A stretch of 56,699 nucleotides of DNA, the filler included, from Sluysia triapertura (Eukaryota): the NCBI GenBank assembly GCA_046118255.1. It is 4 parts of 4 records of this genome, joined end to end, with 100 filler letters (N's around TTAATTAATTAA, not from the genome) between each part and the next. Parts side by side here need not be neighbours in the genome. Positions count along the whole stretch, not along the records: positions 32,958 to 45,194 come from JBJNIA010126631.1; 3 more parts are not named here. One strand, 5' to 3'. Position numbers and translations under genes: made by a program. This document shows, piece by piece, positions 3,989-45,294 of this stretch. The notes under the pieces were generated by a model that was given only the letters and a program-made list of their open reading frames with translations, was not told the DNA's origin and did not search any database. Within the stretch, counting starts at the first letter, position 1. Each line of letters starts with the position of its first letter.

Positions 3989-4372
3989 CTTAATTAAAAC
4001 ACACAATCATTTATAATAGTAATACCAAAGGTTCGTAGAAAAATTCAAAGATCGCGTAACACTTAAAATATTTCTTTAAAATATTAGCTGTCTTCCGAAT
4101 TGGAAATGACTTATTCGAGTAAATATCTCCTGTGTGAAGATAGAGGTTGAGCATCATTCAGTTATTCTTCTTTAAGTGAAAGATGAAATCTTGAAAACTA
4201 AAGCTAACTTTTCCATATTTCTTATTTAAATTGTCTACTTCCTTTATAATCAGTATATATTTCACAAATTCGTTTTCTATTTTGCATACTAAACTAGCGT
4301 TCTTTGAAGATCACTACTTAAGTTTTGTTGTTTGACATCACTATTACTATTTTTATATTTAAGAAAACTTAC

Positions 4373-4906
4373 TTTGTTACTATGCTTACGCAACTTCTTC
4401 AAATAGTCTTCCACTACAGTCATTTTTACTCGCCCATGTAAATTGATTTCCCTACCAATATTTGCAGATAAATTGATTATTTTCTTCAAATTTTCTTGAT
4501 CCTCTTTTGAATTATGTTTATTTTGTTGATTTCCCAATAATAAACGAGAAACTAGAAATGCTTTGCATTCCACAGAACCTATTTCACGATAAACCACAGT
4601 ACCAATCCACATAGGAACTAATTTATTCCTCGGTTGTTGTAGTTGCTGTTGCTGCTGTTGAAATGATTTATTTTCATTGGTCTTAACTACTGTTTGCTGC
4701 TGCTGATTGGACTCAAACGATAATTTGTTTTGTGACTTGATAGGTGTTCTGCTATTCTCTGTCGAATATTCAGGTTGCTCTTCGGATTCCGATATATCCA
4801 TGTCGATGAGGATTTCCGGTGTACGGACTGATGTGGTTACCTTGTCTTCATCGTTGATTTCTGGTGGAGGACTTTCTTTTGATTTTGGTTTGTGTTTATC
4901 AGCAAC
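4373..4906 (-). CDS. DIDO1/PHF3-like gene exon, linker plus N-terminal half of SPOC domain
   Basis: WIGTV...CKAFLVS...INLHGRVKMTVVEDYLKKL is the SPOC N-half. TTTAG|GTT acceptor and AAA|GTAAGT donor are both phase 0. Confidence 0.85.
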
Positions 4907-10140: not shown

Positions 10141-10637
10141 TAATTATTATAACTATTATCATTTTAACTGTTTTATTATTATCGTTTTATTACTATCTGA
10201 GCCTAGCCGTCATCAGTGACAGCATTTTAAATAAACTTAAAATGCTGGTTATGTAGCTGTCTACTGATGACATTACACATTAATGAATTGGTACATTGAT
10301 TGTTTGTTACACACACGCTATCGTTTTATTATTTGATTCAATTGATTTGATTGGACGTCCAATCAATCCAATCATTGTATATTTTTATTTCACATTTATC
10401 TGGACATCCAATCACAAATCACATGCAATACACTTATCATTTCACAACGTGACTCTTAAAAATAACTTCACAATTATAAAATTTATTTACCAAACCAATA
10501 AATTAATAAAAATAGGGTAAAAATCGTTTTGAAAGTGTAAATTAACAAATCGGCATCACCAGAATCACAAATGTATACGAAATCTAAATATAATCATTGA
10601 CCTTTACATGGTAGAAATTAATTAATTAAATACTAAC

Positions 10638-11109
10638 TTTATTGCATAATTTGCAATTGATATCATAAAGATGAATACCGTGCAAATGAGTATTATCTGC
10701 TGTCAGTAAATTAACAACAGATGGCAAGTTATTCTTTGTGGTTGCAGTACTTGATTGACCAATTCCTAGATACTTGTGTGACTTTGAGACATTATTCGAA
10801 TGATTCATTACGTTCGAAGATTCATCATCGATTAAAAATGCTGCGCGATACTTTCCATCTGAATTTGAGACGCACATACCAGTTGCTAAATGTTGCGGCG
10901 ATATACGGCAGCGTAGAAAGTCGTGACTTAATTCAGAATCGGTCTTAAGTAAGTGACACAGATCTTTGGCTCGTTGTAAATAATTTGAAGACAAAACACC
11001 ATTATTGATATCATCTTGATAACTCTTGAATAAAGACTCTTCCAGTTGAGCACAAAGTTCCCATATTTGATGGAAATTGAAATATTTATTATTGGATAAA
11101 TTGGAACCT
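10638..11109 (-). CDS. DIDO1/PHF3-like gene exon, TFIIS central domain plus HxxHLxDxNCKxC motif
   Basis: WELCAQLEESLF...YLQRAKDLCHLLK...ISPQHL is TFIIS-M-like. It is followed by DNTHLHGIHLYDINCKLC, matching the DIDO1/PHF3 'HRAHLFDLNCKIC' motif. TTTCAG| acceptor; the AAA|GTTAGT donor (phase 0) joins the 4906 exon in frame. Confidence 0.85.
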
Positions 11110-11858
11110 CTGAAATGTCAATTTTGATTTTTAAATTCATTTTATCTGATGAATTTCATTTATTATAAAAGAATCTACGAACGAGAAAATTTAAATTCAT
11201 ATTCTTTGTAATGGTAAAAATTTTGAAGGACAAAGAAAAAATTAAAACAATACAGGCAAAAACGCAATAGCGATGTATGTCATTTATTATATGTTCAAAT
11301 AAAAGCTTTTAGCAGAATAATAATTATATATTAATCATTCACTACAATAATTCTGAAACAGAAAGAACTTTGTCTTTTTCTTAAATATTTCATGTAATTT
11401 GACACATTCTCTGGTAGCTAGAGTTAGATCGTCAAATTATTCTTCATGCTCCAGATACATATCAATAAGCATACTTAAATTTTATTGCATGTACCTTTGT
11501 GTTACAAGTGAAGATGTTGAAAGAAAAAAATTAATTAATTAGAATGTTAAGACTAAAATTGATTAAAAGCAAAATTCTTAGTTTTAATATTAATACTAAT
11601 TATAAAGATAACTAATACAGTAATAAAACAGCCAAGCGATACAATAGTACATATATAACTACAACACTTAGCAAATGTGCAAAAACTGTCATGCGAAATT
11701 TTTATTTAAAGTCAAAACTGTATATATAACAGTGATGTAATGGTTTGTTGATTATGCATGTAAAAAATTGATTTTTTGGCATAAAAGAAATTAAATTAAA
11801 ATACGGGTAATAAATTAATGAAAAAGGTATAAATTGTATAAATACGGTTAGTTGTCCG

Positions 11859-14430
11859 TGTGGTGGCCCAGCCTACACCTATGTAAATATCACATCAATC
11901 ATAACATTCTTCGACACAAACCTCATTACAAAAAATTACATTATAACAAGTCTCACCTATATCATTCACAACATTACAACACTCATCCTTAAAAAATCAC
12001 TCATGCCTAACAAAATCTTTTTGCTAACAAAACACAGCGCATTGTCATCTTGCCATCATTGTGAACATTTATGTAGTATAATTGTAGACTAATCCTAACA
12101 TTATCCATTTGTGATTATACAAATAAAGTTCAATAATTTTGTAATTTATCGAGTCGATATTAAATTTAAACTTAATCATCTATCGTTAATGGATTGTGAA
12201 AATAAATCAAAGACAATGAAATAAATCAACGAAATGAAGTTTATATGCAACCAAGAGAATATTTAAATCAGAGAATACGTTTCTAAATTACATATTTTTT
12301 ACATTTAATACAATTTTTTTAAAAGGTGAAAATGCTCGTTTACAAAAAAAGATATCAGAAATGAAAATAGAAAATGACGAAATAGTAAGAAATTTAAATT
12401 GTTGATTTAGGTAATTAGAAGATGAAAAGAAAGGCTTATGCATATTTAATGAACAATATTAAAAAAATTAAAGAAATTAAAGAAAGAAGTAAAATGAAAT
12501 AAAGATTCATTTTTAATTTGATAAATCACAAAATATTAGTTTAAAAAGTAACGCCTATACTTAAATTGAATGCTGTCAATAACATGGAAAGTGAAGATAA
12601 AATTGATAAGGAAGAGTTACTGGCGGGTTTACCAAAAAATTATGAAGAATTTATAAAATATTACAAATTGTTGAATTGGCCTATTTCAATAACACCAGAA
12701 TTAATTTCACATTTATATGAAGAAACGAGCGAATATCAGAAAAAAGAAGCTATTTATGAATGGGAAGAAGGACGACAAGAATACGAAAGGGGATTATTTG
12801 ATGTAGCCCCAGATGTTATAAACATACACCAAGATTTACAAGAAAGTAGGTTTTAGAATGTAGAAGAATTTCAAAATTTAGTTTATTCAGTCAGAAAATT
12901 ACCCAGTGCGGTCGATGCGTATTGCGGTTTGACCCAAAATCAACCTATGGAAACAAAGTAATTCGTCGAATTTCGTTTAAATTTTAGAGATACTGCATTA
13001 ACAGTACGAACAGCGTCTGGAGCAATAATGCACCGAGGTTCTTTAGGAGGTTCCAGTCGAGAAGTTGGTCTGAATGCGTGATGACTCGAGGCATTTCAAA
13101 ACAGTCACGGAAGGAAGAGATAATTAAATCGCTATAAGCAAAGCAATACAACTCTAATGTGGCGGAGACCCGTAGGTTAAATCTTGTGTTTTTAGAACCG
13201 AGCAGTCTCAACTTTAGTTCCAAGTTTGGCAAAAAAACATACGATAATTTTGTTTTTTTATTGTGTGGTTAATAAACGTGAGGTTAATCTCGCGTCGGGT
13301 ATCAAATAATGGCGCCCTTGTCCTAAAAAGAGATCAAGAGTACAAAGTTTTCGAAGTCGATCAATCGTATAAAAGCATTTGTTTAAACTTCGTAATTAAA
13401 CCGCTAAAAGGTATTCATATCGGACGAGGACGACCTTTATTTGATACTGACGACGAGCCACTGAGTTTACCAGTTTATAACGTTGTTTCTCATCTGAATT
13501 TTTATGCTTTTATTTTCGTATTTAAAATCACGCGTATGATGCATCATTATCATGATGATGATTTCACTTGTACGATATGCTTCCATAAGTTGTCTATCGA
13601 GACTAGTAATAATTTTGTATAATTTTAAATAATTTTAAAAGTGAAAAAATGTGTAAGGTTGACGCTTATATGGCAAATGAATACGTCCATAAGAGGATGA
13701 AACCTACTAAGATTTATTGTGACCATATTGTTTTTCATTCTCAATAAAATACTCGGATTATTTTTACGTTTTATAGTGTTGACGTAAATTTTGATTATGT
13801 AGTTATCATTTCAGATAATTTAAAACTAAAAAGGCGAGTAAAGTTAATACGAACCGATTAAATGAACGTATTCATGGAGGTCAATATAATGTCTTGAACA
13901 ATTTTGAAATTCGCAGTAGTGACATCACTATTTACATTTTGTATAAAGTTTTTATTACTTCTACGTCTTATTGTACAAATCATATTTTTCGAAGTTTTGA
14001 GATAAGTACATACGATGACTTCATACTCGATAAATCCGCTGCCTGTAATGAACGTAAGTTTTATATGATTACGGTTGTGCACTTTTTGAATGTGTCGCCA
14101 ATTTTTATAAGGTTTGTCCGATTTATCTATAATAAAAAATTCTCGGGTTGTTGTTACTTCAGAGTTTGTTTCCATAAAAGAATTTTTGAGTGCCTTAAGC
14201 ACCAGATTTATAATAACCTTTATTTTTATGTAAATGAAACCTTTTACAACGACTCAAACAAGAACAGAAATAATGATACTTTTAATTTCATAAATAATAA
14301 AACTAAATTTACAATACCAAACTATTAAGTTAACTATTAATATTATATCAAAATATTAGCACGATTTTAAAGGCAAATATTAAATTACCGAAATGCTTTA
14401 GTGATTTAATTATACTTTACTTATCTTAAA
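11859..14430 (+). mobile_element. Decayed element: C/A-skewed LTR-like start followed by broken orphan ORFs
   Basis: TGTGGTGGCCCAGCC start and C/A-rich leader, then intronless plus-strand ORF fragments (12566-12856, 13263-13622, 13894-14328) separated by stops and frameshifts. Confidence 0.35.
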
Positions 14431-15567: not shown

Positions 15568-15667
15568 NNNNNNNNNNNNNNNNNNNNNNNNNNNNNNNNN
15601 NNNNNNNNNNNTTAATTAATTAANNNNNNNNNNNNNNNNNNNNNNNNNNNNNNNNNNNNNNNNNNNN
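15568..15667. other. 100-nt scaffold gap with TTAATTAATTAA linker
   Basis: N run with a six-frame stop spacer at 15612-15623. Confidence 0.95.
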
Positions 15668-17979: not shown

Positions 17980-18355
17980 GGAAAGAGGTGGCACATGGGT
18001 GAAAGATGTGCCACCTACCGCGATTGTCATGCTGGTAAAATTTAGGTAAAAAGATTGTGACCCAACAAGTGTTAATGAAGGTCAGGTTTTACTGTGCTTC
18101 TATTTTAACGAAGCATTTTTTATTCAATGAAGACTTGCGAAGAGATGAGAAACCATACGTCTGAATAAAAAGCAGTGTCACTTCAACTATGAGAGTAACT
18201 TTAACAAGCTCTCTAGCCATCGTGATGTACATCGCATCCAAATCATCGGGACATTTGCTAAGCCATGTAGGGAAATTCGAGGGTATTTATATTCAACTGG
18301 TTTTTAGAAAAAATGCAGGACATAAAAGTTTTTAAGTTGATCTTGGCTTGTAGTT
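17980..18355 (-). pseudogene. Decayed homolog of the orphan gypsy accessory ORF at 39190-40386
   Basis: Minus-strand fragments QAKI..KNFY, PAFF, PRISLHGLANVP..LDAMYITMARELVKV, FSSL..LNKKCFVKIEA, QSFLPKFYQHD and GGTSFTHVPP align in order with QARI..KNFY, PAFF, PLISLDGLSQIP..IDSLYLAVARGVVKV, FSSL..IHKKCNIVIEA, QSFLPNLYKED and NGTSFTHVPP. Confidence 0.85.
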
Positions 18356-18866: not shown

Positions 18867-20221
18867 TCAACCATTTAAACAAAAGCGAAGAACAATGCAT
18901 AAAATCATTTGAACAACAAATATCGATCTTACAAAATTCTGAAAGAAAAAACGTTTTGTCGTTTCATGAGAAACATTAATATGTGTGTTAACATTGATAA
19001 TATCAGAAATATCATGACCATTTGTACCTAAAAATCGACGAACACCAAAAGATAATGGTTTAAGTTCAACTTTATCACGTTTAATTCGAGCAATGTGCGA
19101 TAACATTATATTAAAACCTGCCTTAATAAATCTCAAAGTATAGTTTAAATCGTGATGTTCACTATAATTAAACTTTGATAGCAGCTTTATCATTTTACCT
19201 GCATATTCTATCCAATAATTTATAGCCTTTTTTAATTCGTAGAAATAAATATAGGCATAATGACTTAAAAATTTCATGATGCACGTAATCTAAATATTTA
19301 CTAAACTCTTTATAAAAAATATGCTTAATTAGAGTATAACATCATTTTATAATCAACGGTAGTTGTTGAATGAAATTGAATTGTGTTATAAATCTTAATT
19401 TATTTAAACATCTGATAGGAATTTCATATTAGCATAGTTGGACTAAAATTCATATTAACTGAAAATATTAGTTTATCGTAGGTTGACTTCAATTTTAAAT
19501 AATACCATGATAAATAACGAGTCCAGTTTTCTTGTTATTTGATAATATTTTTACATTATCTGCTGCCATATGTTTCGACCACTTTATTAAAATGTTGCAT
19601 AAAAAAGCCAAATACGCAATAAATTTAAATCAATCAATTAATATTATTTACAAGAATGTGTAACATTGAAATTTGTCCATTGTTGAACATTGGTAGAATG
19701 TTCCAAATCTTATTGCAAATTTTCTGCTTCTGCTTCTTTTAATATCAAAGCTTTTAAAGCTGCTGATTTGTCAACTGGTAATTGATGATAGCCTTCTATT
19801 GCTAGTTTAACACTATTAATTTATTTATCAATATTTGCAACATATTTTTTAATTTTTCAAAAAGAGATAATGGAAAAATTTCACCCTGATTTCAATTTCG
19901 CTTTTGTAAGCCATTAGATTTTCTTCATTAGTTCTGCATTTTTCATAATTAGACTTCATTCTTTTTGAAATCTTGCATTAGATTAATTTTCTTTGCAGAA
20001 TTTAGTAATTTTTTAATAGTATCATTAATATTTGAAAATTTTGAAGCACGAAATTTAATTTTTTTTGTAAATTTCTTGTCTGAGTTTAATTTTTTTACTA
20101 CAGATTGGTGATATTTATTATAAGAAGCTTCCAGAAACTTTATCACTTTCAAAAACATCATTAGTTTGACTTTGTGATGCAAATTAGTTGCGTAACGATC
20201 TATAATATCTATAAGATTCAA
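18867..20221 (-). pseudogene. Broken intronless orphan ORFs (coiled-coil-like fragments and a 136-aa ORF), probably TE cargo
   Basis: ORFs 19949-20221 and 18867-19277 with interrupted frames between them, preceded by a strongly T/G-skewed leader. No recognisable domain. Confidence 0.3.
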
Positions 20222-21208: not shown

Positions 21209-21800
21209 ATGAAATTCACGAAACTGGAAATTAGTAAAGAAATTAAATATGCATTACGAGAAATGGATATGAAAAAAATGAAACATGTAATGTGAAACAT
21301 AAAAGGAAAAATGTATTCCGGAATTGTTAAATGGTTTTGATTTAATGTGAGCTGCTAAAACCGGCAGTGGCAAAACATTGGCATTTTTGGTACCCATTGT
21401 AGAAAAGGTTTTAAGTGTGCCTCAAACTTCAAATTACGGTACCATAGTTCTTATTATTTCACCTACAAGAGAATTATCTGAACAAATTTATGGTGTCTTA
21501 GAAAAGTTGATATCAAAAACAGATATAAAAATTGACATAATTATAAATGGAAAGAACATGAAAAACCAAGGTAAATAATTAAAAGAAGGTATTTCGATTT
21601 TGGTCTCGACGTCCGGTCGACCTCTCATTTTTTATACGGTAAATGTGTAATATTAGTGATTGATGAAGCTGATGAACTTATGAGTCAAGGATTTTTAGAA
21701 GACGTCATTTATTTGTAGGAAATTACCAAAAAAATAGTCAAACTGCTTTGTTTTCGGCAACATTAAATATGAATAAAAAGAAAATGAAGAAATACCTTAG
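21209..21800 (+). pseudogene. Intronless disrupted DEAD-box RNA helicase (DDX18/HAS1-like) N-terminal domain
   Basis: Q-motif region F..L.IS, then AAKTGSGKTLAFLVP (I), IISPTRELSEQIY (Ia), STSGR (degenerate Ib), LVIDEAD (II) and FSAT (III). It has in-frame stops and frameshifts, no introns, and is truncated before domain 2. Confidence 0.85.
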
Positions 21801-22429: not shown

Positions 22430-25400
22430 CCCAAATTGGTAGAGGAAAATCATCACATATGGTTCGTTGCCTATACTTTGATGAAAAAATGAGCTCGGTT
22501 CTTAATGAATAAGTAAAAGTTACGAAATAAGTAATTTCAGAAAATGATATTTAATTTTAAAGTTAATTTATAATAAATTTTAATTGTTGTGAAATTATTA
22601 GTACCTTTATTCGATGATAACTTATAAGTGACAATACTCAGGTTTATAATCGTGTGCTCTACTGTTTGGCCAAAATTCATGTTTATCATATGGTTCAATC
22701 TTACACAATATTCATGTTTGAACAAATACAAGTTTATTATTTATGAAGTTTGAGTTTGGGAATGTAAACCCGTAATGAATACCATCTTATAAGTCACATG
22801 AAACATTGGAAAGTGTTCATCGAAAAAAAACTCGAATATTTTTATAACATTCTAACACGTATCTCGGTATTTGAGTTATGAAAATCAAAATATTCAGACT
22901 TAAACATTTGTTCATTGCTGTAAGTGATGGCTACTAATGCTATAAGTATCATAGGCATTAAATGTATCTTTTTGGCATTCTGAGATTTCTACCGAAATTG
23001 ATTAAATAAAACGCTGTGAAAAATAGTATTATAAATAACTTATAAGTGGCCTTTATACTATCGAAAATCAATGGATTAGCTTTATGAATGTTTCTTACCA
23101 ATTTAGTTGTAAATGTTTTGTTGGAAATTGCTGCGTGGATATTTTATTGTTATATTGTTTTATTTCTACAAAATTTTTAATACTACGTGTGTTTTGTGCA
23201 TTATCCATCGTTATTCATATTAGAATTCGTCTATATGCATTATGTATGTTGTTAATATTAAGGATTTAGATAAATTCAATCAATTTCGAAGGCGTGTGGT
23301 AAAATTAATTTTTTAGCAATAAATTTCATTCTCCAGTATCGATTATAAGTATTACTGATCATATTTTTGTTATTTTCCGGTCTTAATAGCTGTGTTCCTG
23401 TTTTAAAATTCTTTCTAAGTATAGTTAAATACACAAATAAAAATAATAATAATGATTAATTTCATCCAAAAAGGAAGTTTTTCTTAAGCTTATTTTCATT
23501 ATTAGTACCTAGTTGAAAACTATGATGCTCGGAAACTATTCCTAATGTATCTGACTCTACTTCGTATGATGCTATTGACCATGTGGAAGAATCCGACGAT
23601 ATATCTGGAAAATAATGAAACGTAGTTGATACTAATGATTTTGGAAGATTTGTTGTAGATTGTAGTAAGTGTGGAATCATTGGTGATACGCGCAAGTTTG
23701 GAATTTGGATTTGCAGTACCATACGCGACCTTGTGAAAATTTTACAAATCCGCATTTATTTGTATTACTATAATTATATCCTTTTATATTATTTTACTTA
23801 TATCTTACATTTGTGTGTCTACCAAATGATCCTTCCAGTGGAAGTAAAGTTGAGACTAAATCTGGATTTGTAATTGCTACTGCTAACATTGTGCGTAGTA
23901 TCGCTTTATTTAATTTCAGACTCTTTGTAACTATTCCTTTCTTAATCTGTAATATTACTGGTCCGAAAGATAAATGCCTTGGTAATTTGTTTCTGCAATC
24001 TCTTTACCGCATCGAATTATTAACCTACTGATATAAATATTAACCTATCTTTATTGGTCATTAAAATTACATAGTTTCTATATCATTTACTCTTTCTTAG
24101 TAATGACTCTTTGTTTTCTTTGTTTATTTGTCTTCTATTTATTTATATTAAGAATTCGTAATTATCCTGATGCACGAATCCAACTTCGCTTAAACTTTAT
24201 TTGTTTTAGAAATACTAATGGATACTGAAATACTAACTCTGGTATCACAACTAGTTTGATCGGTTCAACAAAATTATCATGGCATTATAGTACTTTTTTC
24301 TACGTCAAAACTTTTGATTTCAAACTTAAGTCTCGAGCTACGATAATTGCGCTACATTACTTCTATGTTTGTTTGAGTTTTGAAATTACTACTGTTACTA
24401 CCATTATAATTATTGTAATTGTTCGGTCTTCCTATACTTTTGTTTCTTCCTACAAAATTATCGTTGTGTTGATTATTTGATAATCTAGGCGGTAATAGTG
24501 CTTGTATTTCCGAGAACCAATATTATTTTGATAACTTCTTTCGTTATATACTTTTCTTCGGCTGTAATTTTTTTGTATTTCTTCTGTAATTGTTTCCACA
24601 AAAATTAATGATTCTTTTGCAATTATAATCTGAAGCATTTCAATACTTGGGAGATTCACTTTTTAAATTATATCTTGGGTTTTTATCTCTTTTAAAACTA
24701 GTATTACTCACACAACTTATGTTATCTTTTTCTTCGGCTTGAGATTTCTCGATGTCCCTTAATTTCTTAATTACTTCCTAAAGTGTGGAGGGCGATAATT
24801 TTTTAATTTTATAAATATTAAACCTTAAAAAACAATTTTTACTTTACAAAAACAATTAAACAACTTGAATTTAAATTTAAACAAGAAGGGCTTAAGGCCC
24901 GAAATGATTACTAATAAACAGTAAATTAAAACGCTTAAACAATTCACAAGGTTTATTAATTTACAAACATTATTAAAAGGATATATAGAATATAAATTTT
25001 TAAAACAAGATAAAACAAAAAGTAAATGAATTAGGATGAATTTTATGTGATGAGTTCCCTACACTTCCTTAATTACTTTCGTAACCATCTTTTAAATTTA
25101 TATATTAAAGTTGTATTTTTTATCTTCAGGGATTTTTGTCCTTGCCACTAAACAAATTCGTAAACCGTTCCATTCGGCTTCTGCTTCTTAATATTTAACA
25201 TCTTAATTTATTTTCCAAGGTCATCTAAAGCAATTTCTTCAGCAAAAAAATGTTCCAATTTTGATTTTTTGTATTATCAGCTTCTTTATATGTTGGAATC
25301 CGGTTAAATAATTTTGGATTAAGTTTTTCTATTTCGGTGCAGCTGTTAGTTTCGCTTTTCAAATAAGAAATCATAGAGCTCTTCTTCGGCTCCGTTAAAC

Positions 25401-32785: not shown

Positions 32786-32857
32786 CAGTGGAATCCGCTT
32801 AATCGGACCACATCTGGACACAATTTTTTTGGTCCGATTAAGCGGCTGGTCCCATTA
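32786..32857 (+). mobile_element. Tigger/pogo-like transposon terminus running into the gap
   Basis: TA|CAGTGGAATCCGCTTAATCGGACC with a perfect 16-bp internal inverted repeat (32795-32810 / 32830-32845), typical of pogo-family ends. Confidence 0.7.
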
Positions 32858-32957
32858 NNNNNNNNNNNNNNNNNNNNNNNNNNNNNNNNNNNNNNNNNNN
32901 NTTAATTAATTAANNNNNNNNNNNNNNNNNNNNNNNNNNNNNNNNNNNNNNNNNNNN
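32858..32957. other. 100-nt scaffold gap with TTAATTAATTAA linker
   Basis: N run with spacer at 32902-32913. Confidence 0.95.
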
Positions 32958-33858
32958 TTTCTGAGGTGGCAATCTTTAAAATGTCAATCTCTTCTCACAT
33001 CTTCTCTTGCCCAATCTAAACTCTCTAACAAATTACTTCTTAGCTCTGAACTTTCCGATAATGCCTTCTTCTTCTTACTTAAAGCTCGTACCAATACTTT
33101 GCCTCTTAACTTTTCTGCACGCAATCTTAAAACTAACTCCCTTACAAACTGCCGAAGATGCCACGTACTAAATCATTGCGCCTTCAACTCTTCTCTAATT
33201 ACTGATCGACATAATCATGCTCTAAACCTTATCTGCTCTTTCTTTAGGGACCGTGGGGTTGATATTGAATGTTACTCTGAGTACAGGCTTTTCTCTAATC
33301 GCTCAGATGTCCCCGATGAGGTAAAAAGACAGCGACCGGATCTCCTTTTTCAATTCAACTCTTGTTTCTATCTAATTGATGTAAAAACGCCTTTTGATAA
33401 AATCGAAACTTTCTCTTCTATTCATAAAGAAAATTCTCTTAAATATCTTCCCTTCTCACAATATCTCTCTAAAATCACTCGCTCTAAAGTTCTGATCTAT
33501 ACTTTAATCTTTCCTTCTCTAGGCTCTATCTATCCAGAAAACTTCAATACTCTCAGAACCTTCAACTTCAACAAATCAGATATCAACAAAATTTTGGTGG
33601 AAATCTCATTCAACATGGTGAAAATGTCTCACAGAATCTTCATCAACTATATTCTGTCCAGATATCCGAAAATCAAACATCTAACAGCTGCTGCAACTGT
33701 TAAATAAAGAAAATAAAGAAAATTAATGACAATTTATCAATCTCAAAGACAATTTGTTCATCTTTTTCGTGATTCATCTTTTCCATTTTCTTCTCATATG
33801 TAAATCATCATAATATACAGCCCTCGGGCATCGATTTAGCGTTTTGTATATAATAAAA
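32958..33858 (+). mobile_element. 3' end of an RLE-endonuclease non-LTR retrotransposon (NeSL/Utopia/R4-like)
   Basis: KARTNTLP, CRRC-HVLNHC (zinc knuckle with spacer deleted), RHN, RPDL...LIDVK..F...KY (PD-(D/E)xK endonuclease). Stop at 33707, short 3' UTR ending in AATAAAAA. Confidence 0.9.
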
Positions 33859-33919
33859 ATTTGGTAGTTCGAATTATAAATTATACGAATGATAATAAAT
33901 GGTTATTTACAGGAACTAA

Positions 33920-35990
33920 ATGGGAAGAATTGTTAATTATAAAATACCAACACATATTAATGTAATAAGCGATACGAAAAATAATAAAATAAAATTACGA
34001 CGGGATATACAAGAAGAGGATTATGGAGAAATTCATATCAATAACAAAAATTTAACCAAAAGGCAGAAGGAACAACTACATGAAGTTATACATCGATTTC
34101 CAAGAGCAATTTCAAAAAATAAATACGATATTGGAGATTCAGTAATTATAAAACATGTGATACCATTAACAGAGGATAAGGTAATTCGAAGAAAACCGTA
34201 TAGAATTCCTATTTGCAATCAAAAAGAAATGCAAGATCAAATTGACACTATGAAGAAAGCTGGAGTAATAAGACCGAGTTTCTCTCCTTTTTCATCACCA
34301 GTATTATTAGTGAAAAAGAAAGACGGTACAATGCGATTCTGTATAGACTTTAGAGAATTAAATAAGATAACAAGAAAAGATGTATTTCCCCTACCACGAA
34401 TAGACGAGATGTTAGACAAATTAGGGAATGCCACGACTTTAGATTTACAAAGCGGATATTGGCAGATAGAAATAGCGGAAAAAGACAAGCAAAAAACGGC
34501 GTTCACATGCGGAAATGAATTATACGAGTGCGAAAAGATGCCATTTGGTTTAACAGGTGCACCAGCAACGTTCCAACGTTGTATGAATTTTGTACTATCA
34601 GAATGTAAAAATGTCATGGTTATATAGATGACATTATAATATTTTCAAAGGACTTTAAAATTCATCTGGAAGATATAGATAATATATTAAAAAGATTGGA
34701 AGTTGCCAGACTTAAAATAAAGCCTACAAAATGTGTATGGGCAGAAGAAAAAGTTGAGTTCTTAGGACACATAGTATCTAAATATGGTATTAAACCAAAT
34801 CCAAGAAATATTGAAGAGGTAATTAAGTTTCCTCAACCGGATAACGTTAAAAAGGTTCAGAGTTTTCTAGGTTTGGCTAATTATTATAGAAGATTTGTTA
34901 AAAATTTTGCGAAAATTGCACAACTTCTTAGAAAACTTACAAAAAAGGATGTAGAATTTAAATGGATCGAAGAACAGATGAAGGCATTTAACGAATTAAA
35001 AGAACATTTAACTACAGCACCAATATTAATATTTCCGGATGTTAATAAACCTTTTATACTAACTACGGATGCTAGTAATTACGCTATCAGTGCAATTTTA
35101 GGCCAAAAGGATAAAAATAATCGTGAAACAGTTATAGCATACGCCAGGAGAAGACTTAATAAAGCAGAAATGAATTATTCAACAGTTGAAAGAGAATACA
35201 TAGCAATTGTATATGCATGTAAATTGTTCAGACATTACTTGTTAGGACAAAAAGTTTATTTGTATACTGATCATAAACCTTTAACATATTTGTATAATCA
35301 CCGAGATGAAGTTAGCAGACTCAACCGATGGTTTAATAAATTATCAGAATTTAACTTGGAGATTGTCTACAAATCTGGTAGTTTAAATAACGGGGCCGAT
35401 TGTATGTCTAGATTGACGAATGTAGATGATGAAGGAAATATCAATTTAATACAAATTATGTCAGTATCGGGAAATTTACAGAACTATGAAGATATTATTA
35501 AACATCAAAGAGAAGATAAAGAAATTTCGGCTATTCTAGATGGGTTAGCTAAAAGAACTTTAAATGAGTTACATTCAAAAAGATTAGCTATTATTGATGG
35601 AATATTGAGATTTAAAAATAATAAAGACGAATGGAAAACTATTATCCCAGAATCATTAATTATAATATTTTAATACAATTAGGTCACTTATCAACGAGGA
35701 AAACATTATTGAGAATTAAAAATAAATATTACAGGGAAAATATGGAATCAGATATAAGAAAATGGTGATGAAAAGTAGGTGATGAAGTACTCAAAGATTA
35801 TACGATAACTAAACCTGGACATTCGCCAAAATTACAAAAACCTTTTAAAGGATCTTATTTGATAACAAAAGTTACCGATACAAATTTGTTTGTTAAGGAT
35901 CCTAATAAGATTAATTCTGAAACGTTTGTGGTACATGTCAACAGGTGTAAATTAGCACCGAAAGAGGAATATAATTTAAGAAATAGAAAG
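33920..35990 (+). pseudogene. Gypsy pol: RT, RNase H and integrase remnants
   Basis: RT: KPYRIP, SPFSSPVLLVKKKDG..RFCIDFRELN, LDLQSGYWQI, MPFGL..APATFQR, and YIDD at 34621-34632 after a 1-nt frameshift. RNase H: TDAS, E, TDHKPL, ADCMSR. The integrase HH region (~35680) is joined directly to the GPY/F module (KLQKPFKGSY), with the DDE core deleted. Confidence 0.95.
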
Positions 35991-36119
35991 GTACAAAAAT
36001 CAAAATTAAAAATTCAACCAAGACATAATGATCGAGATAAACCGCCGTCAATTCATACACTAAGGAGTAATCAAGTGGTATTCATGATGAATTCTCATAG
36101 AAATGACTTAACTCATATA

Positions 36120-36470
36120 ATGCAAAATGTACGATTTAACGGACGATGGGTTAGAGCAATCGTAGATACCGGCGCTACTATTACTGTGGTTCATAAAAAC
36201 TTTCTAATTACTTGGGAATCAATATTCTTAAACAGACCAAGTCTAATAACATGTAATGTTAATCAAACACCTATAAATATCAATGGAACTTTATCATGTT
36301 ATATAGAAATATTAGGACAATATGTACAAACTGTAGCAAATGTTTGGGATAATAGCCCATATGAACTAATACTGGGAATGGATGTTATTAATAAATTGGA
36401 AGATATGGTTATTCATAGCATGTATGGATTTATAAAAATACCACCAGGTTCAAACATGATCATACCATAA
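36120..36470 (+). CDS. Second retropepsin-like aspartyl protease, downstream of integrase
   Basis: VRAIVDTGATITVV active site and YELILGMDVI C-terminal motif, in frame with the integrase C-terminus (ORF 35859-36470). Confidence 0.85.
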   Translation: MQNVRFNGRWVRAIVDTGATITVVHKNFLITWESIFLNRPSLITCNVNQTPININGTLSCYIEILGQYVQTVANVWDNSPYELILGMDVINKLEDMVIHSMYGFIKIPPGSNMIIP

Positions 36471-38925
36471 CTAGTAGTTCCACAAGACGGTGATTAGTTA
36501 ACTTTATATCAAATGCCAATGTCAAATCCACCACTACAAGTTCCAGACTTACCCGACATTGTCGAATCTACACTCCACTTATCAGATGTGTCATGAGGTT
36601 CACCATCATCAATTACATCAGAAGAAAATTCGGATTCAGGAATCAGTTCAGATAATAACTAATATAAGAAAAAGAAATTGTCTTAGTAAAAATCGTTTTG
36701 GGAAAATAACTTGTTGGCTTTCTATCCTAATTATGATTTTTCTATCACTAATAACTAATGTCATGGCAACAGAAACAGCCGAAGAATATAAAAATATGAA
36801 TATATCTACAAATCATGGCAGGGAACAAAAAATAATGATTAGTGACATTTACAACCAATATTGGAAATTCGAATTCATTTCTAAGAAAATGATTCTTTAA
36901 CACAAATTTGAAATTTATTGTATCTCTTTGAAACCATTATTAGTGGGAAAGCCACATCATTTGGACGGTATCCCACATTGTTTACATTACGGTTATAGAC
37001 AAATGCTAATAACTTTCTCTTTTGACACTCCAAGAAATACACGAGACATCCGAAAATTTATTAAGCAAATAGATCAGTTGAGTAATGAAGACACAACGAA
37101 AATACAGACAACCCTATCTGATTATAGTGCAATTGGGAAATCAATAGTTAATTTAAACAATTCAACTGCAATCGGTAAAATGGAACACTCTTATAAATTC
37201 TTTATAATATTACTAATTTTTTACATTACTATACTTATTTTGGACGATACTCTATGTGTATCAGATAGGTAAGAAAATACAGGTCCCGCGAACAACAAAA
37301 ATCTAATACCTTTAATTTTGATTACGATAATTACAGTAGTTCAATGTCACGAACAATCTTTTAAGACGGAGTATTTTGAATTTTATAATGGAAACAATGA
37401 AGCAAAAGTTAAAATATTAAATGAAAATGTTCATGCCAAATTTGCATGTTTGAAACCTGCCAGACTTAACTTTCGCTCATAGGTTATATACGAAAATTAT
37501 ATTAATAGTGAATTGAGGTATCCCGTCACGGTTTGCTCAGATATTTTACGTGTTGAAGATAGACATTATAGTGAAATACCGTCACTCATCAAAATACTTG
37601 CACTTTGCATTTAAATGTACAAGAAAACATCTAACAATATTGGAGGTATTACGGAATGATCCAGCGTTAATGATGCTAATTGTGGTGGCAATGCTATTCA
37701 TAATTGTTCTAGCTATAGTGGTATTAACTATTATTATGTTTGTTTCGAATAGATGCCGATATCCATGTCTATCGCATAACAATAATAATGTCGACGACGA
37801 CGCGTATACAGTTCCACATAGAAACAATTACGCTCCTCCTCCAGGTATGCCAATACTCCCACCTCCAATTTACGAATACGCTACAAACAATCAAATACCG
37901 CTTATATACGGAGATTGGCAAATGACTCAAGTAAAATCTACAATCTTGATATGTATCTACCTATCTTGTATATCAAGTACAAATTATTTATCAGAAAACT
38001 CCACGCCTAAAATAATTTTAGTCTCTACTCAAAAAGACGTATACGCTAGAATATTAATTGACGAAATTAAGTTATTTTCGGCCCGAATAAAATGTTGTAT
38101 AATGGATTGGTGTGAAATTGAGACAAGAGCAAGTAAACAGGATTCCTACTGGTTCATATCGTGTATCGATCTTGCTGAATATCAACTAATTAGTGTAACA
38201 ATAACTATGGAACTAGAATATGACTCCCAGAGTGACTCCAGGACTATTTTAATGCGATATTACAAGATAAGAACTAAACCATTTGTTTTTCGACAATCTT
38301 CAATAGTAGTTGAGTTTCCAATGATCATCTATCGCGATCTCCGAAATGTTGTACGCATATATAATCCGCTATACAATAATACATTATTGATCGCCTACAA
38401 ATTGAGTAATGGTTTACGTTATGGAATAATATTGCCTAATGAAACCATTCGCTTATATCATATTCCGAATTATATACTCATGTTTGTCAAATTCTGGATA
38501 ATAAGAAAAACAGAAATACTTAATTCTAAAGGATTCTAGCCAACAATTAGATATCACGACGAGCAGGTACCAATTATAGATAAAAACGAAAATGATTCTG
38601 ATACAAAATCAGAAAAATGCTTCTAATCAATAACAATGGTACGAATATAGCTTATGGCAAGCATAAGAACTTTAGTCCAGCCACTATCAGTAGGAATAAG
38701 AACGTAAGTCTGAATGCTACTAGTATAGATAAGAAAGTAAATAAGGAAAACACTAATTTTTCAATTATGAGAGAATCTAACAATAATTTCATCATAACTG
38801 TAAACTGTATTTTAATAATAACTTCTTTGTTAACCTTAATAATTAATTTTGTTATCCCAAAATTCTATTTGTTTATTAGGCATAGGGCTCATTTCTTTAT
38901 AATGGTTTTAATACATATTGCATAA
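36471..38925 (+). pseudogene. Accessory membrane polyprotein (several signal-peptide/TM segments, PPxY tail), mildly disrupted
   Basis: Frames continue across single stops and frameshifts. Hydrophobic segments lie at ~36710, ~37195, ~37300, ~37665, ~37935 and ~38790, with LPPPIY after the TM. The homologous relic has a sense codon where this copy has the 36898 stop. Confidence 0.7.
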
Positions 38926-39189
38926 TTGACCATATATACTCCCATTCATGTTGGAACATATGTGATATTAAAATTGATTTTGTAATATAGTAAGGATCGT
39001 GCATATGACTGAATGTGATGGTTTACCATCCATCTCGGCTCATGCACGAACTTAAAATTTTATATATGTGTAGGATTTTTCTTTTTAATTTTCTAATACT
39101 AAGTTTTTCTACAATTAATTTTGTTAATGAAATATAAAATTAAATGATTTTAATAAGCTTACTTATTTATAATTTTTCTGTACAATTTT

Positions 39190-40386
39190 ATGTTTCTCTC
39201 CAGTTACAGAATTAAGATGCAAGCCAGGATCCTGAACCAACCAAAAAATTTTTATCTCCACGTGGACAAATTCTGCCACCAGTGTATTATCCCCGCTTTC
39301 TTTTCTTGCTCTGTCGATACCCCTAACAACCTTAAGTCAGAACTAAATCTTAATCTGGAAACACCTTTGATTTCACTAGATGGCTTATCCCAAATTCCTC
39401 AGATGATAGATTCCTTGTATTTGGCTGTGGCACGAGGAGTAGTTAAGGTTGCACTAGTTGATAATGGGGTCCAGTTTCATACTCGTGCCCACATGTTCTC
39501 CTCACTATACATCTCAAAGATACACAAGAAGTGTAACATTGTTATCGAGGCTACAGAATACCCCACTTCGATTACCCTTCTTTTCCCATTGCTACCCTCT
39601 TCCTTCCAATCGTTTCTCCCTAATTTGTATAAGGAAGACATCGCTAATCTGACGCGATGGAGAAATGGAACGTCCTTTACGCATGTTCCACCTATGTTCC
39701 ACCGCTTGGTCTTCGTCGCATATTCGTACGCTTTCGATTTTTTAAATCAACCTCATATCGCCCATTTGTCCTGTGTTCCTTACTCCCGCCAATTTCCCAC
39801 AGATGTAAATATTAAATCTCGCCTGCGTATTAAGAATTTTGTGAAGGACGTTCACGAAATGAAGGATTCGGATATTTCCGAGGCGAAGGATGTTGACGAT
39901 GTCGGCCCTTTTCTGTTGGAACATATTCACGATAAAATTCTAGTTTCATTAAATCCTTGCCTCATCATCCGTGACCTGAATCTTCCTTTCGGGTGGCTTA
40001 AAGGAATTATAAACTTATCCAACAATAATCTTTTATCTTATACCACGGACAATGAAATCTTGAGGGGACGGCTTACTTTTAAACTGCTTTATCCCGTGCC
40101 TCCCCGGATGACATGCTCACGAATGTCATTCGAACTGGTGAGCCTTTTGGATCTGATTCGTGAGAAAGACCCGACCTTTATTCTCCCTCCACCATCGCTT
40201 TTTTCTAATTTCCCCCTTTTCTCCTCTACTAATACTCTCGTGGCACATTCTAAATCAACATTACCATCACTAACTACGACACCTCCCCAATTAACAGCCA
40301 CTCCATCAACATCAACTGAATTATTGCAGACAGCAACTACTCTACCAAACCATCTATCATCACATACTCAATTACATAATAAATAA
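39190..40386 (+). CDS. Intact orphan accessory protein of the gypsy element (likely start at ATG 39217)
   Basis: 398-codon uninterrupted ORF, GC-richer than its flanks, with a T/P/S-rich tail. The second ATG is preceded by a pyrimidine tract + CAG (39193-39203). A diverged homolog lies at 17980-18355. Confidence 0.8.
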   Translation: MFLSSYRIKMQARILNQPKNFYLHVDKFCHQCIIPAFFSCSVDTPNNLKSELNLNLETPLISLDGLSQIPQMIDSLYLAVARGVVKVALVDNGVQFHTRAHMFSSLYISKIHKKCNIVIEATEYPTSITLLFPLLPSSFQSFLPNLYKEDIANLTRWRNGTSFTHVPPMFHRLVFVAYSYAFDFLNQPHIAHLSCVPYSRQFPTDVNIKSRLRIKNFVKDVHEMKDSDISEAKDVDDVGPFLLEHIHDKILVSLNPCLIIRDLNLPFGWLKGIINLSNNNLLSYTTDNEILRGRLTFKLLYPVPPRMTCSRMSFELVSLLDLIREKDPTFILPPPSLFSNFPLFSSTNTLVAHSKSTLPSLTTTPPQLTATPSTSTELLQTATTLPNHLSSHTQLHNK

Positions 40387-40620: not shown

Positions 40621-40632
40621 AAGGGGGAAGTA
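40621..40632 (+). promoter_or_regulatory. Polypurine tract
   Basis: AAGGGGGAAG just before TGTGAAA at 40634. Confidence 0.8.
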
Positions 40633-40633
40633 T

Positions 40634-41175
40634 TGTGAAATATAAAAATTTTGTTGTAAAAATTGTAAAAAATCAATTTTGTGTAAATATTGTCTTGTTT
40701 TTGTATAAATATTATCTTAAAAAAATTAAAAAAATTAATTAAAAGTATTTATGAAAATATTTAATATTATTAATTAAATCATAATTAGAATTTTAATTAT
40801 TGAGCATAATTAATCTAACGTATTTTAAAAATAGAATAAAAGATTACAAATTTATTATAAATATTTATTTTGAATAAAATTAGAAAATTTATCATACATA
40901 TTTATAAAACATTGAATAAACTTAGAAAAATTATAAATTTATAAATATTTAATATTTAACTCTATAATTAGAATTAGCTTGCATAAGAATATATGAAGAA
41001 AAAGACAAGTAAAGCCTTTTCACAATTTCTCAGTCAATAATTTAGTTGGACAAAAAGGTCGTTTAACTCTTGGAAATTTGGTATTACTGGTAACGCATAA
41101 TATATTTACCTAAGGAAAATTAAGGAGAAAACTAATATATTCAATTTATGATCTGAAGACGTTGAGAACAATCGA

Positions 41176-41414: not shown

Positions 41415-43865
41415 TATAGTGGTCAACACTCATAATTTAAAATTATTCAAAATTTCTTGATCAATATTTACAAATTAAATTCCACTAAAATTCAAATTTT
41501 AAAATAATCATACTTTTCATTTTCGAACTAAACCAACATAAACATCATAAAACAACATTCGATATTTACAACACCCACCAACTCACATATATTAACAATT
41601 CAACTAATATTTCAACCATCTATAGCATAACAAACTTCGACATTTAATCTCGAATAATTCACAACATTTACCCACAAGACGTTTCAACAAACAAACCACA
41701 ATCACAATACAAAATACACAAATCATAAACATAACAACATTATTCATCAACGCTAAAAACATAGACTATTGCCATCTAAAACCTAAATCAACAACACCGA
41801 CCTACATCCACTTCATATACACATATTCATCATTCACAGTTACTCGCAATAACATTATAAAATATGAAGACTTATTTTGTAATCATCATTAAAATTAAAA
41901 TAACTTCAACTTTCCAATAAACATTTTAAACCATTAAATCTAATGCAAAAATCTTGTTTTTAAATTGTAAACCTTCAATAAGTTTCAATAAATTATTCTA
42001 ACATTCTCCACTTCACTTACAATCTAAACCATTACATCTGTTAAAAACAAATTTAAGATAACTTTAAAGAATTCATTATTCGACCTTGAAGCAACAACGA
42101 TAACCGACATTTAATATATCTTATTACCGTTGCTCCTTTACAGTGTATTATTTGTTTGTTGTTTCTCTATTAATTTTATCATTTTTATATGTAAGAAGGT
42201 TTAAAAATACAAAGAATAAGATCGTGTTTAAGAGTGTTAAAGGTTTATGCGTTTCTTTTAAAATTTTATAATAATAATAACAATAATTTTATCATTATTA
42301 TTATTATAATACTGTTATTATTATCATCATTATTGCTGTTATTATTTTATTTTCGTCAATACCTAAAAATAAAATAAATAAAATTTAATTATTGTAGTTC
42401 AGACTGGTTACTGCAATCACCAACACTGACAACCTATTTACATTTTTCATTAGGCTGTCAGCGTTGATGATGGTCGGTGATCAGACATAATTCACAGGAA
42501 TCGATTTTGTGTCACAAATTAGTTGATTTTTCTTATCGCCCAATCAGAGTGAATATAACTCTCAAAATACTTACAATACTCTGATTGGGCAGGCTAAAAA
42601 AAGAACTAAAACTAAAAAATAATCAATAAAAAATTTTTGTACGCACAGTTAAAAATTTTCTGACAACAATTAGAAAATTCCAGACAGTAAAAAATTCTCC
42701 AGACAAAATGGATCATCATTTTAGTAAATCATGTATTAATATTAATGCAAGAGCAATGCAGTTTTCATCGCATATTTTAACTGATCTTTTATGTCATTCT
42801 ACTCATTATATGATGAAAAATTGTATGGAACAAAAGGATAAAGCATTCTCAACAATCTTATCAACAGAGTTATCAACAATCTTATTATTGTGTTAAGAAT
42901 CAACCATTTTAAAGTGTACAATTTGGATTTGTCAAATGAGTTATCTGAAGAATTAAACAATATATTGTTATTTTTATTAAGACTACTAACGATGACAAGA
43001 CAGATGATTCATATCGATTTATAATTGAACCAATTCTCAAGATTAATGTAAACGATTGGAATCTACTCGAACTAAAACATAAATTGTTAAAGTCACTAAT
43101 ACCAAGCAGGTGGGCCCACTTTCCAAAATCTTTATGGTGTAATAATTACAATTATGATAAATACGTTATGACTCAGCTTCGTGTTCGACATGAAAATAAT
43201 TTTATATCATTCAGAATGCATATTAACAATCAATTTTCAATTTTAGTATATCATCATGAAGGAAATGAGTCCAGTTTGATGCGATATATTTTATACGCAA
43301 ATGTGACGTCAAAAAAGAGTTTAATTGATTCGACAATCAAATTATTGCGACATCGGTGTGAATTGACGGATTCAAGATTAAAGTTCATTTTGATTAAAAT
43401 ATCAACACTAGGAGATAGATATGTCAAGAGATGTAATTCAATTTATGATAAAGTCGGAAGTATGATGACAAAACCTTATAGATTAATCCAAACTCCTACT
43501 CTTTTGTTTTTTTCAGATCGTGTTACATATACATTCAATTTCATATGAAGTAGATGAAATGATTTTTAGAAATGTCACGAGATACATCTATAAGTTGGAA
43601 TATGCTGCAGATATCCTAAAACAAGAAAAAGCGATCTATGTAATAAAAACGTTTTATCTGAATATAAAGTATGAATCATCAATTAATTGTGATTTATCTT
43701 GAAACTTTTCAACAGTATCTTTTAGGGTCTCGAGTACCTTTCAATATCGTAGTGTGGAAAATTCAGCGATTTGCTTTATCATTGCATGGTGATATAAACA
43801 TAATTCCAATTAAATTCTGTGAAGTTTCATTTAATAACAAATTTGTAAGTCTTAATTCGATTTAA
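41415..43865 (+). mobile_element. Decayed element: C/A-rich leader, T-rich tract, hairpin/CCAAT module, broken orphan ORF
   Basis: TATAGTGGTCAACACTCAT start (family motif), inverted repeats at 42416-42471 and 42538-42590, and overlapping ORF fragments 42708-43865 consistent with one frameshifted gene. Confidence 0.4.
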
Positions 43866-45194: not shown

Positions 45195-45294
45195 NNNNNN
45201 NNNNNNNNNNNNNNNNNNNNNNNNNNNNNNNNNNNNNNTTAATTAATTAANNNNNNNNNNNNNNNNNNNNNNNNNNNNNNNNNNNNNNNNNNNN
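45195..45294. other. 100-nt scaffold gap with TTAATTAATTAA linker
   Basis: N run with spacer at 45239-45250. Confidence 0.95.

What the first reader, a model, noticed from the sequence alone, without database searches (positions are those of the whole stretch)
35859..36470. Aspartyl protease downstream of the integrase
Seen: VRAIVDTGATITVV...ILGMDVI is in frame with the integrase C-terminus. Established: the gypsy protease lies upstream of RT. The relic has a protease remnant in the normal position (~24250) and also sequence homologous to the end and linker of this one (CGFVK ~ YGFIK; STTFHYFPDISSDSSTWSIASYEVESDTLGIVSE ~ ESTLHLSDVS*GSPSSITSEENSDSGISSD). The family therefore seems to have two proteases. 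Inference: PR2 may process the accessory or envelope polyprotein.
Basis: partly seen in the sequence, partly recalled or inferred. Interest (0 to 1): 0.75.

Follow-up and report, generated by a model that had tools for sequence, protein, structure and literature searches.

The report
Retrotransposon carrying extra protease copies
A decayed virus-like jumping gene in an animal genome has a protein-cutting enzyme in an unusual place, after its integrase, and related elements carry from one to seven such enzymes in one giant protein, where ordinary elements of this kind have one.

Summary
The protease is real. A retropepsin with an intact DTG motif (36114-36430) is in frame with the integrase C-terminus of a decayed Ty3/gypsy element. 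Its predicted fold is retropepsin, and a homodimer is predicted. The element resembles planarian Burro (gag-env-pol) elements. Relatives P0002, P0034, L002 and L004 carry both a pre-RT and a post-integrase protease in one ORF, and P0034 has seven. Post-integrase proteases occur in 3 of 4 related loci and 0 of 62 others.

PR1 is missing from this truncated copy and is inferred from relatives. Downstream lie signal-peptide/transmembrane proteins (FN3-like in relatives) and a degenerate exonuclease.

Best guess: PR2 is an optional self-excising module that frees integrase from the membrane-anchored 3' chain. Against this, 7 of 12 relatives lack it. My paper searches found no description of multi-protease LTR elements, but I could not see the Burro figures or Repbase. 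The scan's earlier notes showed no such finding.

The parts
36114..36430 (+). PR2: retropepsin (aspartyl protease) domain, catalytic DTG 36165-36173, ILGMD 36369-36383
   Evidence: Pfam; profile 100.7 bits; model pLDDT 80.4; fold matches DDI1 and retroviral proteases; homodimer prediction
35772..35990 (+). Integrase C-terminal (GPY/F, SH3-like) module, in frame with PR2
   Evidence: matches integrase C-termini of clade polyproteins
35991..36113 (+). IN-PR2 linker (~40 aa) with a cleavage-site-like hydrophobic motif (VVFMM); no gag or LTR
   Evidence: motif judged by eye; no CCHC knuckle anywhere in the window
35690..35768 (+). Start of the integrase H2C2 domain; the integrase core is deleted right after it
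   Evidence: sequence; loose ends of 27 contigs continue into C-x2-C at 35767
33920..35673 (+). RT and RNase H, broken by a frameshift near 34620
   Evidence: Pfam; tree
33855..33920 (+). C-terminal end of the dUTPase-like domain that follows the pre-RT protease in relatives; the element is cut off upstream of here
   Evidence: best of 111,889 six-frame windows, score 30.3 vs next 15.4
36471..36660 (+). Ser/acidic linker after PR2, shared with the relic; the stop ending the PR2 frame is not shared by the 21 contigs listed at that place
36706..38925 (+). Broken 3' accessory region: several signal-peptide/transmembrane segments (36706, 37198, 37303, 37679, 38809) and a PPxY motif at 37862
   Evidence: hydropathy scan; no Pfam match; no match to the relatives' FN3 repeat profile
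39157..40386 (+). Separate 3' ORF: degenerate DEDDh-type exonuclease homologue lacking the first catalytic D-x-E
   Evidence: profile from L001-L004 exonuclease ORFs E 1.7e-5, next best 0.15; Pfam RNase_T on the relatives' ORFs
40622..40660 (+). Polypurine tract followed by TG, probable start of the 3' LTR (no second LTR in the window to confirm)
   Evidence: only match of the PPT-TG pattern in the window
23818..24330 (-). Relic: broken fragment of a gB-type (Monjiviricetes_fusion) envelope gene; holds the false 'DTG' motif at ~24240
23451..23804 (-). Relic: last residues of a PR2 equivalent plus the acidic linker, joined to the env fragment by a large internal deletion
   Evidence: DNA alignment vs shuffles
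22474..23368 (-). Relic: 3' accessory region homologous to 36829-38907
   Evidence: tblastx E 5e-24 (summed)
17983..18262 (-). Relic: piece of the 3' exonuclease-like ORF
   Evidence: tblastx

Best explanation
SHOWN: the window holds a decayed copy and an internally deleted relic of a Burro-like gag-env-pol Ty3/gypsy element; a second retropepsin sits in frame between integrase and a membrane-anchored 3' accessory region. Relatives carry 1 to 7 retropepsins in one polyprotein. INFERRED (about 0.85): intact copies of this family also have the usual pre-RT protease. INFERRED MECHANISM (about 0.45): env lies in frame upstream of pol and a signal peptide follows integrase, so the cytosolic Pol segment is tethered to membrane at both ends and is not delivered as a simple Gag-Pol. 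PR2 dimerises, cuts itself out at its flanking sites and frees the integrase C-terminus from the accessory membrane chain, independently of PR1, which matures RT and integrase in the particle. It is an optional, repeatedly duplicated and shuffled processing module, not an essential one.
For: Both proteases in one uninterrupted ORF in P0002, P0034, L002 and L004. Post-integrase protease in 3 of 4 clade loci vs 0 of 62 other loci with room downstream, and in 5 of 12 clade proteins vs 1 of 32 others, at a fixed 138-150 aa after the integrase core. Window RT lies in a 13-row clade, SH-aLRT 96. All 9 clade proteins with enough upstream sequence have a pre-RT protease followed by the dUTPase-like domain (2 of them partial), and the window keeps the end of that domain. 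20 of 21 extra copies keep D[TS]G; the post-integrase protease of L002 vs L003 has dN 0.31, dS 1.0. Homodimer score 0.64 vs best control 0.04, runs agree in at least 91% of contacts, pLDDT at least 82, with Asp-Asp and Thr-Thr contacts; this mark was reached by 21 of 30 solved microbial homodimers and 0 of 23 monomers, 17 of 29 eukaryotic dimers and 0 of 30 monomers, and a pass may be from memory of solved retropepsins. Extra copies lie after the env transmembrane helix or between integrase and the 3' signal peptide. The 3' protein of relative L001 folds as tandem FN3, not a fusogen.
Against: 7 of 12 clade proteins have no post-integrase protease; six of them go on to the same signal-peptide/TM tail. 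L004 has it and P0043, 77% identical over 982 aa, does not. P0009 has only one protease. The 5 of 12 is inflated because P0002-P0005 were found with an IN+PR query; the five closest RT-found proteins (P0006, P0039, P0040, P0001, P0043) have none. PR1 is not seen in this family itself. The window's PR2 is not clearly orthologous to the other extra copies: it scores 73 bits on the pre-RT profile vs 64-68 on the extra profile and is unplaced in trees (p-AU 0.29). dS is near saturation. Cleavage sites were judged by eye. No activity was measured.
Confidence: 0.45

Rival explanations
1. PR2 is an accessory effector: once excised it cleaves host proteins (defence, apoptosis or ubiquitin pathways), like the other cargo of Burro-type elements.
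For: Patchy presence, rapid divergence (15-28% identity of PR2 to the other copies), variable copy number and position; neighbours are accessory-type domains (ankyrin, FN3 membrane proteins, exonucleases). Burro carries BIR, BCL2-like, MATH and SUMO-like domains (PMC6431247 section 7).
Against: No host substrate is known. Position always inside the polyprotein at domain junctions fits processing at least as well.
Confidence: 0.25
2. Extra proteases are near-neutral passengers from template-switch duplications, tolerated because each brings its own cleavage sites; the catalytic motif is kept only because dead subunits would poison PR1 dimers.
For: Gain or loss between close relatives (L004 vs P0043); tandem sister copies inside one element (P0013, P0034); weaker constraint than RT (dN 0.31 vs 0.06).
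Against: The 24 extra copies form their own old group apart from pre-RT proteases (78/80, weak) and 20 of 21 keep the motif at ~20% identity. A motif-less copy is kept in both L002 and L003, so dead copies are tolerated.
Confidence: 0.15
3. Relocation: this family has only one protease, moved from upstream of RT to downstream of integrase.
For: PR2 leans to the pre-RT type by profile score and C-terminal pattern; no PR1 is seen in the window.
Against: No clade member with upstream sequence lacks the pre-RT protease (9 of 9); the main copy is simply truncated inside the dUTPase-like domain; the profile margin is only 5-9 bits.
Confidence: 0.1
4. PR2 belongs to a nested or tandem second element, or is a captured host DDI1/ASPRV1-type gene.
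For: Such fusions occur in databases (P0031: protease 417 aa after integrase, two gag matches, sister to its own PR1). Best structural hits are DDI1.
Against: Only ~40 aa between integrase end and PR2, in frame, no gag knuckle or LTR; same spacing in five relatives; the diverged relic has the same PR2-end/linker/accessory order; DDI1-type Pfam model is below cut-off and DDI1 identity is 17-21%, like HIV and XMRV proteases.
Confidence: 0.05

Closest known systems
Burro / GYPSM1 giant gypsy elements of planarians (PMC6431247 section 7, read whole; its Figure 2 not seen; Grohme 2018 not held)
   Same: env with mononegavirus-like fusion homology in frame between gag and pol; dUTPase-like domain between PR and RT; giant polyprotein (4,873 aa there; 4,844 aa for relative P0034); ankyrin repeats in relatives; accessory ORFs.
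   Different: The text names one PR-RT-RH-IN set only; no extra or post-integrase protease, FN3 membrane tail or 3' exonuclease is mentioned. No Burro sequence was available, so membership was not tested directly.
GAG-ENV-POL errantiviruses with HSV/gB-type env in Nematoda, Bryozoa, Platyhelminthes (PMC13524379; abstract, sections 5 part 1, 14, 22, passage searches, one supplement table searched)
   Same: gB-type env upstream of a Ty3/gypsy pol.
   Different: The word 'protease' occurs once in the main text (Fig. 1 legend); no multi-protease architecture is described there. Figures and the GitHub sequences were not seen.
Bdelloid rotifer LTR retrotransposons with DEDDy exonuclease or TM ORF3 (PMC5408684; passages)
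   Same: dUTPase domain in pol; 3' accessory exonuclease and small TM ORFs.
   Different: No second protease in the passages seen; env, where present, is F-type ORF3.
Retropepsins: DDI1 RVP domain, HIV-1, XMRV, EIAV proteases
   Same: Fold, DTG motif, predicted symmetric dimer.
   Different: 17-21% identity; PR2 is embedded after integrase in a retroelement polyprotein.
Duplicated proteases of RNA-virus polyproteins (coronavirus PLP1/PLP2, arterivirus nsp1alpha/beta, closterovirus L1/L2) - recalled, no call
   Same: Large polyprotein with duplicated self-excising proteases that divide processing and accessory roles.
   Different: Those are papain-like cysteine proteases that work as monomers; analogy only.

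Membership tests
Retropepsin (peptidase A2-like) | D-[TS]-G catalytic motif and downstream hydrophobic-hydrophobic-Gly-x-Asp motif | tested here: met
Retropepsin (peptidase A2-like) | Retroviral protease fold and symmetric homodimer | tested here: met
   predictions only; may reflect memory of solved relatives
Retropepsin (peptidase A2-like) | Proteolytic activity | not testable with these tools
   needs an assay
Ty3/gypsy LTR retrotransposon | RT-RNase H-integrase order with H2C2 and GPY/F modules | tested here: met
   integrase core deleted in this copy
Ty3/gypsy LTR retrotransposon | Protease upstream of RT | tested here: inconclusive
   copy truncated at ~33855; present in 9 of 9 clade proteins with upstream sequence
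Ty3/gypsy LTR retrotransposon | Paired LTRs, PBS, PPT | tested here: inconclusive
   PPT plus TG at 40622-40635; no 5' LTR or long direct repeat in the window
Burro-like gag-env-pol elements | Mononegavirus-like (gB-type) env upstream of pol | tested here: met
   relic env fragment upstream of the PR2 end and 3' region; in frame in relatives P0002, P0009, P0034, L001
Burro-like gag-env-pol elements | dUTPase-like domain between PR and RT | tested here: met
   C-terminal 22 aa at 33855; the name of the domain is taken from PMC6431247, not from a Pfam hit
Burro-like gag-env-pol elements | Ankyrin, BIR, BCL2-like, MATH, SUMO-like cargo; >30 kb length | tested here: inconclusive
   none in the surviving part of the window copy; ankyrin in P0005/L002; 5' half missing
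Burro-like gag-env-pol elements | RT groups with named Burro1-4 sequences | not testable with these tools
   no named Burro sequence was returned by any search
Host DDI1/ASPRV1 proteases | Stand-alone host gene outside a retroelement ORF; DDI1 model above cut-off | tested here: not met
   in frame with integrase; PF09668 19.5 bits vs cut-off 26
Nested second LTR element | Own LTR and gag between host integrase and the protease | tested here: not met
   ~40-aa in-frame linker, no CCHC

The most novel reading that the evidence does not exclude
A clade of envelope-bearing gypsy elements has broken the one-protease rule of LTR retroelements: an extra retropepsin lineage has been duplicated and shuffled (up to seven copies, including kept catalytically dead ones) and has specialised functions, in staged processing of a membrane-threaded gag-env-pol polyprotein or against host proteins, and this architecture is undescribed.
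Probability: 0.5. Interest if true: 0.75.

Novelty: new variant of a known kind. Interest (0 to 1): 0.6.

Why it matters
LTR retrotransposons and retroviruses are generally described with one protease (my knowledge). Elements with several active-looking retropepsins in one polyprotein offer a natural series for asking how a gag-env-pol polyprotein, whose Pol is separated from Gag by a membrane protein, is processed and packaged, and how retropepsin specificity diverges after duplication. They also show that a protease after integrase is not always a nested insertion, which matters for repeat annotation.

Tried and rejected
No whole genome is held, so intact copies could not be fetched.

Word-indexed searches found nothing for the IN-PR2 frame among longer proteins (0 of 334 candidates) or for the last ORF (0 of 2971); the Atlas gave no usable hit for the last ORF. 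Single-protein locus scans found nothing (P0003 in viral contigs; P0005 in genome contigs).

One sequencing run holds the stretch; no RNA holder listed. That run may be the window's own source and is contigs only, so depth is not copy number. Only the best-supported rows were shown, so I could not see what lies upstream of 33855 in other copies or whether some copies skip PR2.

Rejected: the relic 'PR1' (it is env). Rejected as unsupported: a dUTPase-like start right after PR2 (rank 3 with a short motif, absent with the long one). The window's 3' ectodomains do not match the relatives' FN3 repeat profile (a first crude attempt was uninformative), so FN3 identity is shown for L001 only. Trees do not place PR2. 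dN/dS could not be computed for the window's own family.

Paper searches without a description of multi-protease LTR elements. Sacco 2022 and Grohme 2018 were not held. PMC12440569 was seen in outline only and not used; PMC8532177 and PMC11410931 passages added nothing on proteases.

Full report
1. Observation. The window is AT-rich eukaryotic DNA with no whole genome held. The frame 35772-36470 is open for 232 codons. It encodes an integrase C-terminal module, a ~40-residue linker and a retropepsin (Pfam gag-asp_proteas E 1.8e-7, above cut-off). An AlphaFold model (pLDDT 80.4) matches DDI1 and retroviral proteases (best E 4e-7, 17-21% identity). A homodimer is predicted at 0.64 against a best control of 0.04, with at least 91% agreement between runs, pLDDT at least 82, and Asp-Asp and Thr-Thr contacts. 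That mark was reached by 21 of 30 solved microbial dimers and 0 of 23 monomers (eukaryotes 17 of 29 and 0 of 30), and a pass may come from memory of solved retropepsins.

2. The element. Upstream lie RT and RNase H with a frameshift near 34620 and the start of the integrase zinc finger. The integrase core is deleted in this copy; 27 contigs of run X1 continue at 35767 into the missing C-x2-C. The copy is cut off at ~33855, inside a dUTPase-like domain (best of 111,889 windows, 30.3 vs 15.4), next to a non-LTR fragment and a gap. Gag, env and any pre-RT protease are therefore absent from this copy. Downstream are an acidic linker, several signal-peptide or transmembrane segments, a separate degenerate exonuclease ORF (E 1.7e-5, next best 0.15) and a polypurine tract with TG. 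In run X1, 51 contigs are counted at 36208 and 52 at 36421, one 332-base contig covers 36117-36397 with 56 differences, and the stop ending the frame is not shared by the 21 contigs listed there. That run may be the window's own source.

3. The relic. It shares the 3' region (tblastx summed E 5e-24) and the end of PR2 plus linker (87.5 vs best shuffle 74.5 of 200). Its supposed PR1 is not a protease: the protease profile finds nothing there. The region matches the gB-type fusion protein of relatives (E 3e-8), and the DTR-like motif aligns with an env cysteine motif. The relic is an element deleted from mid-env to the end of PR2. It shows that env is upstream and that the PR2-linker-accessory order is shared with a diverged subfamily.

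4. Relatives. A search of 1.84 billion representatives returned 33 proteins at E<=0.001. I scanned 18 of them with Pfam and all proteins held with my own profiles. P0002 is env-PR-PR-RT-RH-IN-PR-membrane tail. P0034 (4,844 aa) has seven proteases, five before RT and two after integrase. A tree of 43 chosen RT-RNase H rows puts the window in a 13-row clade (SH-aLRT 96, quick method). Among proteins with a near-full integrase core and at least 200 further residues, 5 of 12 clade members and 1 of 32 others have a later protease. The outlier P0031 looks like two merged elements. The 5 of 12 is biased upward by the query. Of 145 loci fetched with an RT alignment, 66 had an integrase core and 1 kb downstream; 3 had a protease within 1.2 kb, all among the four closest loci L001-L004 (assigned to the clade by identity). 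L002 is the same element as P0005 (99.8%). L002 and L004 have both proteases in one ORF. All 9 clade proteins with enough upstream sequence have the pre-RT protease, which is the basis for inferring PR1 here.

5. Evolution of the extra copies. 20 of 21 extra copies keep D[TS]G, and the post-integrase protease of L002 vs L003 shows dN 0.31 and dS 1.0, against dN 0.06 for RT (dS near saturation). In a 35-row tree the 24 extra copies form one weak group (78/80) apart from pre-RT proteases, and sister copies occupy different positions in different elements (P0034 post-IN with P0001 upstream, 99/92; P0004 post-IN with P0002 upstream, 98/94), so the module moves. Motif-less copies were left out of that tree. 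The window's PR2 leans to the pre-RT type (73 vs 64-68 bits; leave-one-element-out classification right for 27 of 28), but its place among the extras is not rejected (p-AU 0.29). It may be an independent duplicate. Presence is patchy: L004 has it and P0043, 77% identical over 982 aa, lacks it while keeping the same tail.

6. Mechanism. In this clade env sits in frame before pol and a signal peptide follows integrase, so Pol is predicted to be membrane-tethered at both ends (inference). Extra proteases lie after the env transmembrane helix or between integrase and that signal peptide, most preceded by a short hydrophobic motif like those at the RNase H-integrase junction (by eye). The 3' protein of L001 folds as tandem FN3 (pLDDT 81.9, best E 1.5e-6), so it is not a fusogen; the window's own ectodomains did not match that profile. 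I favour PR2 as an optional self-excising module that frees integrase from this chain (0.45), over a host-directed effector (0.25), a near-neutral passenger (0.15), relocation of the only protease (0.10) and a nested or host gene (0.05). No step of the mechanism is shown by experiment.

7. Known systems. The closest is Burro: env in frame between gag and pol, dUTPase-like domain between PR and RT, ankyrin repeats, 4,873-aa ORF (PMC6431247 section 7, read whole; figure not seen). GAG-ENV-POL elements with gB-type env are catalogued in PMC13524379 (abstract, sections 5 part 1, 14, 22, passages, one supplement table), whose main text uses 'protease' once. 3' exonuclease ORFs are known from rotifer elements (PMC5408684, passages). 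Nine searches found no description of several proteases in one LTR element. Grohme 2018, Sacco 2022, Repbase entries and paper figures were not available and could already show it. Membership in Burro proper is untested. Look-ups of the scan's earlier notes returned one unrelated note on a fungal accessory ORF, which I did not use.

8. Verdict. A real feature and a new variant of a known kind. Interest 0.6.

Noticed in passing
window 32958-33707 (+): 3' end of a non-LTR retrotransposon ORF (zinc knuckle plus restriction-like endonuclease motifs, recalled; no Pfam match above cut-off) abuts the truncated gypsy copy next to an assembly gap.
   Followed up: partly
P0034 (whole, 4844 aa); P0013; L001:2-10279: Seven, four and three retropepsin domains in single ORFs, some as tandem sister pairs; tandem pairs could form single-chain pepsin-like pseudo-dimers (untested).
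   Followed up: partly
L002:4152-4433; L003:3736-4023: A protease-like domain without the catalytic Asp is kept directly after the post-integrase protease in both elements (dN 0.44, dS 1.7): possible regulatory pseudo-protease.
   Followed up: partly
L002:7268-10371; L003:6861-9920: Two tandem 3' DEDDh exonuclease ORFs, the first degenerate and the second with intact motifs; the window's last ORF resembles the degenerate type.
   Followed up: partly
L001:9101-9775; P0039 1-260: 3' accessory protein is a tandem-FN3 type I membrane protein; P0039 has a second FN3-TM unit upstream of its pre-RT protease, so this module also moves.
   Followed up: partly
P0009: A eukaryotic env-pol polyprotein is labelled as a Flavobacteriaceae MAG protein; likely bin contamination. 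Many genome-contig loci (L081-L145) are likewise gypsy elements in prokaryotic MAGs.
   Followed up: no
window 10626-11117 (-) and 4289-4906 (-): Exons of a host gene with TFIIS_M (E 0.0012) and SPOC (E 1.3e-5) domains, PHF3/DIDO-like (name recalled).
   Followed up: no
window ~21300-21760 (+): Broken DEAD-box helicase fragment (motifs recalled, no family search run) inside the ~3.7 kb insertion that splits the relic.
   Followed up: no
window 32787-32857 (+): Short sequence beside the gap that looks like a DNA-transposon terminal inverted repeat (recalled).
   Followed up: no
window 42949-43548 (+), 13819-14328 (+), 18867-19289 (-): Open frames of 140-199 codons with no Pfam match.
   Followed up: no
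window 15568-15667, 32858-32957, 45195-45294: Three 100-base assembly gap markers (N runs with a central TTAATTAATTAA); adjacency across them is uncertain.
   Followed up: yes
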